Shown piece after piece: positions 12,253-14,046 of a stretch of 32,000 nt of DNA (positions within the stretch are counted from its first letter, which is position 1; each line of letters opens with the position of its first letter). The notes beneath the pieces were generated by a model that did no database searches, was not told the origin of the DNA, and saw nothing but the letters and a program-made list of their open reading frames with translations. The stretch covers positions 1 to 32,000 of the forward strand of contig NZ_CP094965.1 of the NCBI RefSeq assembly GCF_022985615.1, in the 5' to 3' direction. The translations under genes were made by a program, and so were the position numbers. This DNA is from Candidatus Karelsulcia muelleri (GTDB lineage Bacteria > Bacteroidota > Bacteroidia > Flavobacteriales > Blattabacteriaceae).

Positions 12253-12402
12253 TATAATATGTTTCTATTCTTCTTATTATTATTATTCTTATTATTCTTA
12301 TTAGAGTTAAAATTCCAATTCTAGTTATAATTCTAATTAATTATTATAATTATAATTATAATTACTTTTAATTCTAATAAGTAGACTTATTCTAAAAAAA
12401 AA

Positions 12403-12516
12403 GGTTAAGGTTAAGGTTAAGGTTAAGGTTAAGGTTAAGGTTAAGGTTAAGGTTAAGGTTAAGGTTAAGGTTAAGGTTAAGGTTAAGGTTAAGGTTAAGG
12501 TTAAGGTTAAGGTTAA
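12403..12516. repeat. (GGTTAA)19 perfect microsatellite
   Basis: Direct count: 114 bp, 19 perfect copies. Confidence 0.97.
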
Positions 12517-12546
12517 GGAAGGTTAAGGGAAAGGGAAGGTGAAGGA

Positions 12547-12582
12547 AGTAAGTAAGTAAGTAAGTAAGTAAGTAAGTAAGTA
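12547..12582. repeat. (AGTA)9 microsatellite
   Basis: Direct count: 36 bp. Confidence 0.95.
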
Positions 12583-12583
12583 A

Positions 12584-12625
12584 GGTGAAGGTGAAGGTGA
12601 AGGTGAAGGTGAAGGTGAAGGTGAA
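12584..12625. repeat. (GGTGAA)7 microsatellite
   Basis: Direct count: 42 bp. It is flanked by degenerate gggaaa/ggttaa/aaggt variants that run up to the mnmE ATG at 12691. Confidence 0.95.
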
Positions 12626-12690
12626 GGGAAAGGGAAGGTGAAGGTTAAGGAAAAGGAAGGTAAGGTGAAAAGGTTAAAGGTTAAAGGTTA

Positions 12691-14046
12691 ATGTTTAATA
12701 TAGATAATAACGATACTATAACAGCTATAGCAACTCCACTTGGAGTAGGTGCTCTAGCTGTTATAAGAATTTCAGGACAATTAAGTTTTAAGATAATTGA
12801 TTTCATATTTAAACCAAAAATAAAAAATATAAAAAGCAGAAGAATATATTTGGGTTATATATATTCAAAAAATACTTTAATTGATAAAGTATTAATAAAT
12901 ATATTCAAATCCCCAAATTCATATACTGGAGAAGATATAATAGAAATATCTTGTCATGGATCTATATATATTCAAAATAAAATCTTAGATTTAATAATAA
13001 ATAATGGAGCTAGATTAGCTACTCGGGGTGAATTTACGTTTAGGGCATTTAAAAACGGAAAATTAGACCTTTATCAGGTAGAATCATTATTAGAATTATT
13101 TCATTCAGAGAATGAATTAGACCATAACTTAGCCTTAAATAATTTCAGAGGAAAGGTCTCTATAATTATAAAAAAGATAAGAAAAAAAATATTAACTCTA
13201 AATACTATTCTTGAATTTTGTATAGATTTTTCAGAGGAAGATATTAATAAAAAACATCTACTAGCTTTTAAGAAATTATTATTAAATCTAATAACCAAGA
13301 TTAAAGATTTAATTAATTCATTTAAATTAGGGCTTTTTTTTAAAAAAGGGATTGCTATAGCAATAATTGGTAAACCTAATGTTGGCAAATCTACATTATT
13401 TAATTTTTTATTAAAATCTGATAGATCAATAGTATCTAATAAATCTGGTACTACCATAAACTATATTGAAGAAAATCTCTATATAGATGGTATCAAATAT
13501 AGATTAATTGATAATGCTGGCATTAAAAAAAATACTCTAAATAAATTAGAATTAAAAGGAATAAAAAAAACAATTGAAAACATAAAAAAATCCGATATTA
13601 TAATGTATATAACTAATAATATAAATACTAAATATCTACATTTACAAAAATATTATAAATATTTCTTTAAAAAAGAAATAATATTTATTATTAACAAATG
13701 TGATTTGTTAAAAAAAAAAATAAAGATACAATCTAGTCCAATACTAATATCAGCAAAGTATGGAATTGGAATAAATTATTTATTAAATAAACTTAAAACT
13801 CTTAGTGAAAGATTTCTAAAAAATAATAATAAAACAATAATTACAAATGTTAGACATTACGAAGAATTAAAAAAAGCTTTATTTAAATTAAATAAAATTA
13901 AAGACCATATTCAAATAGGGATTGAACCTGAAATTTTATCTCTTCTATTAAAAGAAGCTAATTATAGTTTAGAGAAAATAATTGGGACTATAACTAATGA
14001 AGAAATATTAGTTAATATTTTTGATAGGTTTTGTATAGGAAAATAA
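12691..14046 (+). CDS. mnmE: tRNA modification GTPase MnmE (TrmE)
   Basis: 451-aa ORF with DTITAIATP.G.GA(L/I)AVIR(I/L)SG at the N-terminus, a G1 motif (GKPNVGKSTLFN) and the characteristic C-terminal FCIGK. Confidence 0.95.
   Translation: MFNIDNNDTITAIATPLGVGALAVIRISGQLSFKIIDFIFKPKIKNIKSRRIYLGYIYSKNTLIDKVLINIFKSPNSYTGEDIIEISCHGSIYIQNKILDLIINNGARLATRGEFTFRAFKNGKLDLYQVESLLELFHSENELDHNLALNNFRGKVSIIIKKIRKKILTLNTILEFCIDFSEEDINKKHLLAFKKLLLNLITKIKDLINSFKLGLFFKKGIAIAIIGKPNVGKSTLFNFLLKSDRSIVSNKSGTTINYIEENLYIDGIKYRLIDNAGIKKNTLNKLELKGIKKTIENIKKSDIIMYITNNINTKYLHLQKYYKYFFKKEIIFIINKCDLLKKKIKIQSSPILISAKYGIGINYLLNKLKTLSERFLKNNNKTIITNVRHYEELKKALFKLNKIKDHIQIGIEPEILSLLLKEANYSLEKIIGTITNEEILVNIFDRFCIGK

What the first reader, a model, noticed from the sequence alone, without database searches (positions are those of the whole stretch)
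12393..12710. 318-nt C-free compound microsatellite abutting the mnmE start whose units match halves of an extended Shine-Dalgarno sequence
From 12393 to 12710 the top strand contains no C at all. It comprises (GGTTAA)19, (AGTA)9, (GGTGAA)7 and degenerate GGGAAA/AAGGT variants, and it ends in ...aaggttaATG, the mnmE start. G content here is far above the window background. UAAGG is complementary to the canonical 16S rRNA 3' tail CCUUA, and AGGUGA is complementary to UCACCU in the same tail (canonical tail GAUCACCUCCUUA). If transcribed, the leader would therefore present more than 30 tandem partial anti-SD-pairing sites. Other genes in the window show no SD at all. The GG-N4 periodicity could also support two-tetrad G-quadruplexes, and the complete strand asymmetry could support R-loops. 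Possible roles include a ribosome standby or sponge site, a transcription or replication barrier, or a contingency locus that tunes mnmE. It may equally be a neutral runaway repeat.
Basis: partly seen in the sequence, partly recalled or inferred. Interest (0 to 1): 0.7.

Follow-up and report, generated by a model that had tools for sequence, protein, structure and literature searches.

The report
Runaway start-codon-derived microsatellite before Sulcia mnmE
The C-free repeat block in front of mnmE is real, but it is a young, fast-changing slippage product that grew from a duplicated copy of the gene's own start-codon region in an insect symbiont (Sulcia) lineage whose spacers are filling with tandem repeats. 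It is not a Shine-Dalgarno-based ribosome device.

Summary
It is a 318-nt C-free run (12393-12710) holding (GGTTAA)19, (AGTA)9 and (GGTGAA)7, and it ends at the mnmE ATG (12691).

The window is the first 32 kb of a ~156-kb Candidatus Karelsulcia (Sulcia) muelleri genome of the planthopper type. Comparison with eight related loci shows a graded origin that follows the mnmE tree:
- Relatives at 94% mnmE nucleotide identity have a 32-38 bp spacer ending A-run+ATG and no array.
- A 98% relative has only a 2-copy 7-mer (CTGTTTA|ATGTTTA) spanning the start codon.
- A 99.1% relative has (AAGGTTT)n mixed with AATGTTT units.
- Three 99.3-100% strains have 275-298-nt compound arrays with the same flanks but different interiors.

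The array is one of many. Against the closest strain, 19 kb shows 60 substitutions but 25 repeat-type indel blocks. Nine orthologous spacers sum to 2026 nt here versus 578 nt in a 94% relative.

The SD-sponge reading is poorly supported. Published Sulcia 16S genes lack CCUCC, none of 16 genes here has an SD, the array has no GGAG or GAGG, and it is not conserved. The array RNA is essentially unstructured and no G-quadruplex is predicted.

Best reading: a non-adaptive, hypermutable spacer or leader, tolerated because initiation here does not depend on SD. The closest analogue is microsatellite proliferation in whitefly Portiera.

The parts
11386..11449 (+). Tandem 12-mer and 23-mer units at the dnaB/M42-peptidase-like junction. 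The units contain the M42-like gene's own start codon (AATGTATAAATT...). This is a second example of start-codon-region duplication.
   Evidence: TRF rows. The sequence comparison with L007 shows the window lacks the 22-nt copy that carries the intact in-frame start MYKFTTNSEY.
11623..12252 (+). Remaining ORF of the M42 glutamyl-aminopeptidase-like gene immediately upstream (209 aa here, 272-283 aa in relatives).
   Evidence: Pfam PF05343 at E=2.5e-9. Gene calls in relatives. Frame analysis.
12253..12374 (.). AT-rich tandem arrays, (TATTCTTAT)n and (ATTATA)n-like, forming the distal part of the expanded spacer. They are already present in the 98% relative L009 and absent in the 94% relatives.
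   Evidence: TRF. L009 sequence. BLAST shows window 12255-12689 has no counterpart in L001, L004 or L005.
12375..12402 (+). Remnant of the ancestral short spacer (ttctaataagtagacttattctAAAAAAAAA). Its terminal A-run directly preceded the ATG in relatives. It forms the left flank of the G-rich array and is conserved in the window, L006, L007 and L009.
   Evidence: Compare '...tttctaatactaaagaaaaaaaaATG' in L001.
12403..12516 (+). (GGTTAA)19 block. L007 has 17 units and L006 has no more than 2.
12517..12546 (+). Degenerate linker units (GGAA, GGTTAA, GGGAAA, GGGAA, GGTGAA, GGA).
12547..12582 (+). (AGTA)9 block. It is absent in L007. In L006 it is replaced by a (GGTGAAGGAAGTAA) 14-mer repeated about 9 times.
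12584..12625 (+). (GGTGAA)7 block.
12626..12668 (+). Degenerate AAGG-core units. This part is identical between the window and L006.
12669..12690 (+). (AAAGGTT)3 plus A. These are 7-nt units abutting the ATG, with the same period as the proto-array in L009 and the (AAGGTTT)n array in L002/L003. L007 has 6 units.
   Evidence: TRF. Junction alignment.
12691..14046 (+). mnmE (tRNA U34 carboxymethylaminomethyl-modification GTPase, 451 aa). Its first 7-10 nt (ATGTTTAATA) are the seed of the array.
   Evidence: Pfam and NCBIfam. Seed copies are visible in L009, L002/L003 and L006.
14047..14121 (+). tRNA-Val, directly abutting the mnmE stop in this strain. In sister strains 16-103 nt of arrays derived from the last 12 nt of mnmE are inserted here.
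   Evidence: ARAGORN..

Best explanation
The block is a lineage-specific, hypermutable compound microsatellite with no dedicated function. It lies in the spacer between the M42-peptidase-like gene and mnmE, which is probably also the mnmE 5' leader, in a planthopper-type Candidatus Karelsulcia (Sulcia) muelleri genome.

Origin (shown by comparison):
- The ancestral junction was A-run+ATGTTTAAT.
- A 7-nt tandem duplication spanning the start codon produced xTGTTTA|ATGTTTA.
- The upstream copies lost the ATG (T->G gives AAGGTTT).
- Replication slippage then amplified successive mutated units: the 7-mers AAGGTTT and AAAGGTT, the 6-mers AAGGTT and AAGGTG, the 4-mer AAGT, a 14-mer, and 12-mers that still carry ATG.

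The total absence of C and the constant AAGG core are inherited from the C-free seed. They are not selected.

Process (shown): the same kind of tandem duplication and slippage is active throughout this clade, at other gene starts, at gene ends and inside genes. It has enlarged spacers about 3.5-fold.

Tolerance (inferred): Sulcia, like other Flavobacteriia, initiates translation without SD/anti-SD pairing and prefers unstructured A/U-rich leaders. A C-free RNA cannot form G-C pairs, and this stretch is the least structured in the window. It keeps an in-frame stop 9 nt before the ATG. It should therefore be nearly inert for mnmE expression.

Cause of the instability (inferred, not tested): weakened replication or repair fidelity, as proposed for Portiera of Bemisia tabaci.
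For: Identity of the source. MnmE and nine other window proteins match Karelsulcia muelleri. The window's proteins are in NCBI as UOQ38103-38119, on a 156,326-bp record.

Graded series, congruent with the mnmE NJ tree ((((window,L007),L006),L002),L009),L004,L005,L001:
- L001, L004 and L005 (94.0-94.5% nt identity) have a 32-38 bp spacer and no repeat.
- L009 (98.0%) reads 'aaaaaaaaCTGTTTAATGTTTAAT'.
- L002/L003 (99.1%) have (AAGGTTT)n interspersed with AATGTTT, plus one unit that extends to +10 of the gene.
- L006 (99.3%), L007 (99.8%) and the window have 275-298-nt arrays with identical flanks. Their interiors differ: (GGTTAA) 2, 17 and 19 copies; (AGTA)9 only in the window; a 14-mer about 9 times and six extra ATGs in L006.

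Genome-wide process:
- Window vs L007: 60 substitutions (0.32%) but 25 indel blocks (393 nt) in 19 kb. Window vs L006: 225 substitutions and 45 blocks (1231 nt).
- TRF coverage is 8.3% here against 1.9-2.8% in the 94% relatives.
- Nine orthologous spacers sum to 2026 nt against 578 nt.
- Arrays copied from the last 12 nt of mnmE occupy 0-103 nt before tRNA-Val in different strains.
- Units containing the M42-like start codon are repeated at 11386-11449.

Inertness:
- Array RNA MFE is -8.6 kcal/mol over 298 nt. It is the weakest of 212 windows (mean -43.5) and z = -0.5 against shuffles.
- No G-quadruplex is predicted.
- There is no Rfam match.
- Promoter-like sites are not above chance and there is no terminator.
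- There is no Bacteroidetes-type TAnnTTTG on the + strand between 11379 and 12690.

No SD system:
- 0 of 16 genes has an SD-like leader.
- Sulcia 16S lacks CCTCC (PMC3457768).

Precedents:
- Hypervariable microsatellites in Sulcia-MSEV (PMC7952229).
- Proliferation of intergenic microsatellites with a spike at 7-bp units in Portiera BT (PMC3673631).
Against: No expression data exist, so an effect on mnmE cannot be excluded.

Some features could hint at constraint:
- The proximal ~50 nt are identical in the window and L006.
- Two of the three long arrays contain no ATG.
- The array is exactly 298 nt in both the window and L007, although the two differ by indels of -12, -34 and +46 nt.
- Every unit keeps an AAGG core.

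All of these are also expected from recent common descent at 0.3-1.2% divergence.

The cause of the instability is untested. dnaN, dnaB and dnaE are intact in the window. mutS, mutL and dnaQ lie outside the sequence I could reach.

This strain's own 16S 3' end was not read.
Confidence: 0.8

Rival explanations
1. Anti-SD decoy, sponge or ribosome standby platform. If the array is transcribed, its tandem UAAGG and AGGUGA sites would pair with the 16S 3' tail and so recruit or sequester 30S subunits in front of mnmE.
For: There are 23 TAAGG and 10 AGGTGA sites. With a canonical E. coli or Flavobacteriia-type tail, RNAduplex gives -11.5 to -13.6 kcal/mol for (GGUGAA)4 and -6.8 to -7.8 for (GGUUAA)4. 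The RNA is single-stranded and accessible.
Against: - All four Sulcia genomes examined in PMC3457768 have TCTCT or TTTCT instead of CCTCC, and Flavobacteria lack SD use.
- With such tails (flanks assumed) the dominant GGUUAA block drops to -3.0 to -3.6 kcal/mol.
- No GGAG, GAGG or GGAGG is present.
- 0 of 16 genes in the window uses an SD.
- The array is absent in 94% relatives and nearly absent in a 98% relative.
- Unit sequences change freely between sister strains.
- From my own knowledge, not tested here: in Flavobacteriia ribosomes the anti-SD is sequestered by ribosomal proteins.
Confidence: 0.03
2. Contingency-type tuner. Slippage-driven changes in leader length or composition would modulate mnmE transcription or translation, giving heritable expression variants among symbiont genome copies or host lines.
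For: The array lies immediately 5' of a start codon and is strongly polymorphic among strains that differ by 0.3-1.2% in sequence. L006 carries six upstream ATGs that would create uORFs.
Against: - The same polymorphism is found at 25-45 other sites per 19 kb, including tRNA-adjacent spacers and coding regions.
- mnmE is a housekeeping tRNA-modification gene.
- No promoter hexamers flank the tract and no reading frame is toggled.
- By general knowledge, an obligately vertically transmitted, polyploid nutritional symbiont has no obvious need for phase variation.
Confidence: 0.08
3. Structural DNA/RNA element. GG-N4 periodicity would form two-tetrad G-quadruplexes, or the G-rich non-template strand would promote R-loops, acting as a replication or transcription barrier.
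For: GG runs recur every 6 nt for more than 100 nt, and GC skew is complete. From memory, two-tetrad quadruplexes are known for insect (TTAGG)n telomeric DNA.
Against: - ViennaRNA with G-quadruplex energies predicts none.
- There are only two G per run, with 4-nt loops.
- The (AGTA)9 block and AT-rich units interrupt the pattern.
- The array is not conserved.
- There is no terminator-like or pause-like feature.
Confidence: 0.03
4. Assembly artefact, or host-derived (telomere-like) sequence wrongly joined into the symbiont contig.
For: Simple repeats are error-prone in short-read assemblies, and the Logan short-read contigs break inside the array. TTAAGG resembles arthropod TTAGG.
Against: Three independent complete assemblies, plus two Logan contigs from different runs, place homologous arrays at exactly the same junction with identical Sulcia flanks. 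The unit is derived from the mnmE start itself. Exact copy numbers could still be imprecise.
Confidence: 0.02

Closest known systems
Intergenic microsatellite proliferation and genomic instability in 'Candidatus Portiera aleyrodidarum' of Bemisia tabaci (Sloan & Moran 2013, PMC3673631; Santos-Garcia et al. 2020, PMC7821994)
   Same: Both are ancient obligate insect endosymbionts with a tiny AT-rich genome. Both show lineage-specific enlargement of spacers filled with short tandem repeats. In both, the indel spectrum among close strains is dominated by repeat-unit changes, with 7-bp units prominent. In both, sister lineages remain compact, and both show accompanying rearrangement.
   Different: The phylum and host differ (Bacteroidota Sulcia in planthoppers). 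[quoted passage not shown] Here the arrays can be traced to duplications of start-codon and stop-codon flanking sequence.
Hypervariable microsatellites in leafhopper Sulcia-MSEV (Waneka et al. 2020, PMC7952229)
   Same: It is the same symbiont species complex. That genome has 6-bp and other tandem repeats with within-sample length heterogeneity (8-11 units), and most of its indels are repeat expansions or contractions.
   Different: Sulcia-MSEV has only about four such regions in a 190-kb genome that is otherwise extremely stable. Here tandem repeats cover 8.3% of the window and reach a ~300-nt compound array.
Simple-sequence contingency loci of host-adapted pathogens (Haemophilus, Neisseria, Campylobacter, Mycoplasma; my own knowledge)
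   Same: Both are short-unit tandem repeats next to a gene start with rapid copy-number change.
   Different: Contingency loci are short tracts placed so that unit changes toggle a reading frame or promoter spacing of surface or restriction genes. This array is ~300 nt and compound, lies upstream of a housekeeping gene, and is one of many similar arrays genome-wide.
Shine-Dalgarno elements and ribosome standby sites (my own knowledge; SD status of Sulcia and Flavobacteria from PMC3457768)
   Same: It is a purine-rich, single-stranded leader sequence directly 5' of a start codon with partial complementarity to a canonical 16S tail.
   Different: It has no GGAGG core. The organism's clade lacks the anti-SD core and SD usage. 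The element is not conserved. It carries more than 30 copies rather than one positioned site.

Membership tests
Shine-Dalgarno / anti-SD pairing element | Complementarity to the organism's own 16S rRNA 3' tail (core CCUCC) | not testable with these tools
   There is no rRNA in the window or in the neighbouring 41.5 kb of a sister genome or the first 18 kb of a relative. In the literature, all four Sulcia genomes examined have TCTCT or TTTCT instead of CCTCC (PMC3457768).
Shine-Dalgarno / anti-SD pairing element | Presence of the SD core (GGAGG or sub-motifs of at least 4 nt: GGAG, GAGG, AGGA) 5-13 nt upstream of the start | tested here: not met
   GGAGG, GGAG and GAGG occur 0 times in the 318 nt, and AGGA occurs 4 times, none in the -5 to -13 window. 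The -20..-1 sequence is aggttaaaggttaaaggtta.
Shine-Dalgarno / anti-SD pairing element | SD usage by other genes of the genome | tested here: not met
   15 other genes have 0-3 G in -20..-1 and A-rich leaders.
Shine-Dalgarno / anti-SD pairing element | Conservation upstream of orthologues | tested here: not met
   It is absent in L001, L004 and L005, there are only two 7-mers in L009, and units differ in L002, L006 and L007.
Simple-sequence contingency locus | Copy-number polymorphism among closely related strains | tested here: met
   (GGTTAA) is 19, 17 and no more than 2 copies; (AGTA) is 9 or 0; (AAAGGTT) is 3, 6 and 3.
Simple-sequence contingency locus | Tract positioned so that unit changes toggle a reading frame or -10/-35 spacing | tested here: not met
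   No ORF runs through the array. No + strand promoter-like hexamer pair spans it.
Simple-sequence contingency locus | Specific association with variable-expression (surface or restriction) genes rather than a genome-wide distribution | tested here: not met
   The array lies upstream of housekeeping mnmE. Comparable variable arrays occur at prfA, tRNA-Val, htpG and the M42-like gene, and inside valS, dnaB and dnaE.
Endosymbiont intergenic microsatellite proliferation (Portiera BT type) | Lineage-specific enlargement of intergenic spacers relative to sister lineages | tested here: met
   Nine orthologous spacers sum to 2026 nt against 578 nt in CM132422. The M42-mnmE spacer is 438 nt against 32 nt.
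Endosymbiont intergenic microsatellite proliferation (Portiera BT type) | Spacers composed of short tandem repeats | tested here: met
   TRF coverage is 8.3% in the window against 1.9-2.8% in L001, L004 and L005.
Endosymbiont intergenic microsatellite proliferation (Portiera BT type) | Indels among close strains dominated by repeat-unit gains and losses | tested here: met
   There are 25 blocks (393 nt) against 60 substitutions with L007, and 45 blocks (1231 nt) against 225 substitutions with L006. The blocks of 4 nt or more map to TRF arrays.
Endosymbiont intergenic microsatellite proliferation (Portiera BT type) | Loss of replication or repair genes (dnaQ, mutL, holA/B, ssb...) in the unstable lineage | not tested
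   Only 32-41 kb of ~156 kb was reachable. dnaN, dnaB and dnaE are intact here. The status of mutS, mutL and dnaQ is unknown.
Endosymbiont intergenic microsatellite proliferation (Portiera BT type) | Associated genome rearrangement | tested here: inconclusive
   One changed adjacency was seen: rsmA-tRNA-Met|dnaB here, against rsmA|ileS and grpE|dnaB in CM132422. Whether it is linked to the repeats is unknown.
G-quadruplex-forming repeat | Four or more G-runs with short loops and predicted or measured quadruplex stability | tested here: inconclusive
   The GG-N4 pattern is present. ViennaRNA G-quadruplex folding of the RNA predicts none. DNA two-tetrad structures cannot be assessed with these tools.

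The most novel reading that the evidence does not exclude
The hypervariable, purine-rich, completely C-free and unstructured leader might be more than junk. It could be a selected, tunable modulator of mnmE expression in a bacterium that has lost SD/anti-SD initiation. Possible modes are a long single-stranded landing platform for 30S/S1, weak AAGG:CUUU-type pairing with the degenerate U-rich 16S tail, or a leader that Rho cannot load on. Slippage would provide heritable expression variants among the many genome copies of the symbiont.
Probability: 0.05. Interest if true: 0.65.

Novelty: new member of a known kind. Interest (0 to 1): 0.35.

Why it matters
The array itself is best seen as a by-product, but two things make it useful.

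First, it captures the birth of a ~300-nt compound microsatellite stepwise across living lineages. The steps are no repeat, then a 2-copy 7-mer spanning a start codon, then a 7-mer array, then a compound array. Similar arrays are seeded from the stop-codon flank of the same gene and from the start of the neighbouring gene. This is a clean natural series for how repeats nucleate at gene boundaries in a genome with almost no spare DNA.

Second, Sulcia is the textbook case of endosymbiont genome stasis. A planthopper Sulcia clade (records of 153-157 kb against 142-148 kb for relatives) shows 3.5-fold larger spacers, 8% tandem repeats and repeat indels that rival substitutions in number. That would be a second, independent, Portiera-like episode of instability. 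It offers a direct test of which replication or repair losses trigger such episodes. I found no paper in the searchable library describing this for these genomes.

It also shows that a striking 'SD-like' pattern can arise with no relation to the ribosome when the organism does not use SD.

Tried and rejected
(1) Reading this lineage's 16S 3' tail. There is no rRNA in the window. The exact MnmE look-up failed. Walking with Der in the sister genome CP094964 reached 41.5 kb with no rRNA. PrfA in CM132422 covered 1-18 kb with no rRNA. Further walking would have cost whole-database searches for roughly a 10% chance per step, so I stopped and relied on PMC3457768.

(2) Host and publication of the source genomes. 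Searches for CP094962-65, the GCA numbers and the SRR numbers found nothing.

(3) Known RNA families. There was nothing at gathering threshold or at E<=1.

(4) A promoter inside the spacer. Sigma-70-like hits were at chance level (15 against 11.8±3.5), with none on the + strand inside 12255-12690. The Bacteroidetes -7 motif TAnnTTTG was under-represented and absent from the spacer.

(5) A 'Rho-proof leader' idea, that C-free arrays are the only ones tolerated upstream of genes because rho is retained. I rejected it as a general rule because the array abutting prfA is the opposite: G-free and C-containing on the sense strand.

(6) A translated-repeat idea. There is no ORF of 20 aa or more through the G-rich array, and there is an in-frame TAA 9 nt before the ATG.

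(7) Apparent loss of rho in L009 and L010. The gene tables omit it, but an intact 393-aa ORF is present in both.

(8) Papers on planthopper Sulcia (PMC10030309, PMC10333215, bioRxiv 10.1101/2025.05.16.654412). They do not mention tandem repeats or spacer expansion in Sulcia.
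Full report
**1. What is in the sequence**

- The + strand has no C from 12393 to 12710 (318 nt; A130, G111, T77). This is the longest C-free run in the window, and the next longest is 177 nt.
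- With C at 10.0% of bases, about 8e-12 such runs are expected in 32 kb. The run reflects repetition, not composition.
- The exact tracts are (GGTTAA)19 at 12403-12516, (AGTA)9 at 12547-12582 and (GGTGAA)7 at 12584-12625. TRF adds (AAAGGTT)3.3 at 12669-12691.
- The block ends ...aaaggttaATG at 12691.

That ATG is the true mnmE start.
- It follows an in-frame TAA 9 nt upstream.
- Pfam TrmE_N aligns from residue 9 and the NCBIfam MnmE model from residue 6.
- The N-terminus MFNIDNND is the same in every relative.

TAAGG occurs 23 times and AGGTGA 10 times in the run. GGAG, GAGG and GGAGG never occur.

**2. Where the window comes from**

The gene set comprises valS, rsfS, dnaN, rpsA, rho, prfA, rsmA, dnaB, an M42-peptidase-like gene, mnmE, dnaE, tilS, iscS, archaeal-type proS, htpG, mtaB, glyS, malic enzyme and der, plus 8 tRNAs. 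G+C is 22%.

- The best genome match is Candidatus Karelsulcia (Sulcia) muelleri DICMUL, a 142.7-kb planthopper symbiont.
- Ten window proteins are present verbatim in NCBI as UOQ38103-UOQ38119, on a 156,326-bp record.
- The window begins at the same lplA ATG as the sister record CP094964. It is therefore the first 32 kb of that genome.

**3. Comparative series for the mnmE junction**

I retrieved the junction from eight related loci. An NJ tree of mnmE gives ((((window,L007),L006),L002),L009),L004,L005,L001. The state of the junction follows this tree.

| Locus | mnmE nt identity to window | State of the junction |
|---|---|---|
| L001, L004, L005 | 94.0-94.5% | M42-like gene, then a 32-38 bp spacer ending '...ctaaagaaaaaaaaATGTTTAAT'. 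No repeat. |
| L009 | 98.0% | '...ttctaaaaaaaaCTGTTTAATGTTTAATATAG'. This is exactly two copies of a 7-mer spanning the start codon, and the upstream copy has lost the ATG. |
| L002/L003 (two Logan runs) | 99.1% | '(AAGGTTT)n AATGTTT AATAAGGTTT AATGTTT AAGGTTT AATGTTTAATATAG'. Period 7. The units still include copies of ATGTTT, and one copy extends to +10 of the gene. The contigs end inside the array. |
| L006, L007, window | 99.3%, 99.8%, 100% | Arrays of 275, 298 and 298 nt between the same flanks (A9 on the left, ATG on the right), with different interiors. |

Interior differences among the three long arrays:
- (GGTTAA) is present in no more than 2, 17 and 19 copies (L006, L007, window).
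- (AGTA)9 occurs only in the window.
- (AAAGGTT) is 3, 6 and 3 copies.
- L006 has a (GGTGAAGGAAGTAA) 14-mer repeated about 9 times, and GGTTAATGTTAA units that carry six extra ATGs.

The array therefore grew out of a tandem duplication of the mnmE start-codon 7-mer. It lost the ATG in upstream copies (T->G) and diversified by unit mutation plus slippage. The seed ATGTTTA and the A-run contain no C. This, together with the very short time since origin, explains both the total absence of C and the shared AAGG core.

**4. The array is one instance of a clade-wide process**

- Against L007, 19 kb shows 60 substitutions (0.32%) but 25 indel blocks totalling 393 nt. Against L006 there are 225 substitutions and 45 blocks totalling 1231 nt. 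The larger blocks coincide with TRF arrays and include in-frame repeats in valS, dnaB and dnaE.
- TRF arrays cover 8.3% of the window against 1.9-2.8% of the 94% relatives.
- Nine orthologous spacers sum to 2026 nt here and 578 nt in CM132422.
- BLAST shows window 12255-12689, 21932-22317 and 22464-22559 have no counterpart in the relatives.
- The mnmE 3' end behaves like the 5' end. The spacer to tRNA-Val is 0 nt in the window and 0-5 nt in the 94% relatives. In L007, L006, L009 and L002 it is 16, 94, 103 and about 90 nt. These inserts are ATAGGAAA/ATAGGAAT/AAATAGTA units copied from the last 12 nt of mnmE.
- At the dnaB/M42-like junction, 12- and 23-nt units containing the M42-like start codon are repeated. 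The window has lost the copy with the intact in-frame start.
- The array abutting the prfA ATG (7694-7916) also differs among the four strains.

**5. Tests of the functional readings**

*SD / anti-SD.*
- Sulcia belongs to the Flavobacteriia. Lim et al. 2012 (PMC3457768) report that all four Sulcia genomes examined have TCTCT or TTTCT in place of CCTCC.
- The same paper reports that Flavobacteria have A-rich, SD-free leaders whether or not they keep the anti-SD.
- In the window, 15 other genes have 0-3 G in -20..-1 and no SD-like motif. mnmE is the sole outlier, with 6 G.
- Duplex energies are respectable only with a canonical tail. With Sulcia-type cores (flanks assumed) the main GGUUAA block gives -3.0 to -3.6 kcal/mol.
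- I could not reach this genome's own 16S. This step is inference from the literature.

*Structure.*
- The 298-nt array RNA folds at -8.6 kcal/mol. That is the weakest of 212 same-length windows (mean -43.5, weakest other -20.4) and no different from shuffles (z = -0.5).
- With G-quadruplex energies enabled, none is predicted.

*Known RNAs, promoters and terminators.*
- There is no Rfam hit even at E<=1.
- Promoter-like hits are at chance level, with none on the + strand within the spacer. There is no terminator.
- There is no Bacteroidetes -7 motif between 11379 and 12690.
- If mnmE is expressed, the array is therefore probably part of a transcript that starts upstream. This is inference.

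*Coding.* No ORF runs through the array.

**6. Interpretation**

The best-supported account (confidence about 0.8) is a non-adaptive, hypermutable microsatellite. It is born from the gene's own start region and tolerated for three reasons: initiation here is SD-independent, the C-free RNA is structurally inert, and an in-frame stop precedes the ATG.

The features that might suggest constraint are all expected at 0.3-1.2% divergence. They are the identical proximal 50 nt in the window and L006, the absence of ATG in two arrays, and the equal 298-nt length in the window and L007 despite three indels.

A tuning (contingency-like) role is not excluded (about 0.08). The SD-sponge, G4/R-loop and artefact readings are each unlikely (0.03 or less).

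**7. Relation to known systems**

- The closest analogue is the proliferation of intergenic microsatellites in Portiera of Bemisia tabaci. [quoted passage not shown]
- Sulcia-MSEV has a handful of hypervariable microsatellites in an otherwise static genome that retains mutS (PMC7952229).
- The present clade meets the spacer-enlargement, repeat-content and indel-spectrum criteria of the Portiera type. The repair-gene criterion is untested.
- I found no paper in the library describing this for Sulcia.

**8. Verdict**

The ribosome-related interpretation is not supported, and the 'neutral runaway repeat' alternative is supported. The array itself is a new member of a known kind.

The by-products worth keeping are two. 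One is the stepwise record of array birth at a start codon. The other is the evidence that a planthopper Sulcia clade has entered a repeat-proliferation phase that is unusual for this famously stable symbiont.

Noticed in passing
window 14040-14047; L007 14126-14142; L006 14287-14381; L009 13734-13837; L002 1409-1500: The spacer between the mnmE stop and tRNA-Val is 0 nt in the window. In sister strains it holds 16-103 nt of ATAGGAAA/ATAGGAAT/AAATAGTA arrays copied from the last 12 nt of mnmE (ATAGGAAAATAA). In L002 the stop codon itself is changed to TAG.
   Followed up: partly
window 7694-7916 (G-free run 7826-7918): A compound AT-rich and TAATCTCC-type array abuts the prfA ATG. The rho-prfA spacer is 252 bp here against 73 bp in CM132422, and the array differs among the window, L007, L006 and L009.
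   Followed up: partly
window 11386-11449 and 11623-12252: Tandem 12-mer and 23-mer units at the dnaB/M42-like junction contain the M42-like start codon. The window lacks the 22-nt copy with the intact in-frame start (MYKFTTNSEY, present in L007 and L001). The first in-frame start is therefore TTG 11623 (209 aa against 272-283 aa). The gene may be inactivated by a repeat-mediated deletion.
   Followed up: partly
window 21898-22330 and 22483-22581: The proS-tRNA-Ser-htpG spacer is 702 nt against 299 nt in CM132422. It is filled with several arrays: TAGATC-like units, 33-43-nt units, and (TTAATTATATAGA)7. The last lies about 20 nt upstream of the htpG ATG and is C-free.
   Followed up: partly
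window 2071-2125 (valS), 15692-15736 (dnaE), 25297-25473 (mtaB, - strand); L006 about 10223-10330 (dnaB): In-frame tandem repeats occur inside essential genes and vary between sister strains. dnaE has +30 nt here. dnaB has +105 nt in L006 (492 aa against 457 aa). MtaB is 501 aa here against 489 aa in the sister and 430-441 aa in the 94% relatives.
   Followed up: partly
window 26355-28169: A single ORF joins a 4Fe-4S ferredoxin-like N-terminus, which carries an (NNAIAI)n-type internal repeat, to GlyRS with no stop between them. In the sister genome glyS is called separately as 503 aa.
   Followed up: no
window 9746-10024; L010 8974-9174; L004 7712-7790: Gene adjacency differs from the 94% relatives. 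Here rsmA-tRNA-Met is followed by dnaB. In CM132422 rsmA is followed by ileS, and dnaB is preceded by grpE-dnaJ. This points to a rearrangement breakpoint in a spacer that also carries a variable array (9755-9822).
   Followed up: partly
window 12393-12690 vs L007 12473-12770: The G-rich array is exactly 298 nt in both strains, although they differ by three indels (-12, -34, +46 nt). This is probably coincidence, but it is the only hint of a length constraint.
   Followed up: no
window 1-32000 vs L001/L004/L005/L010: The whole clade (records of 152,970-156,700 bp) has 3.5-fold larger spacers and 8.3% tandem-repeat coverage, against 1.9-2.8% in the 142-148 kb relatives. This looks like a Portiera-like repeat proliferation in Sulcia that I did not find described in the searchable literature.
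   Followed up: partly
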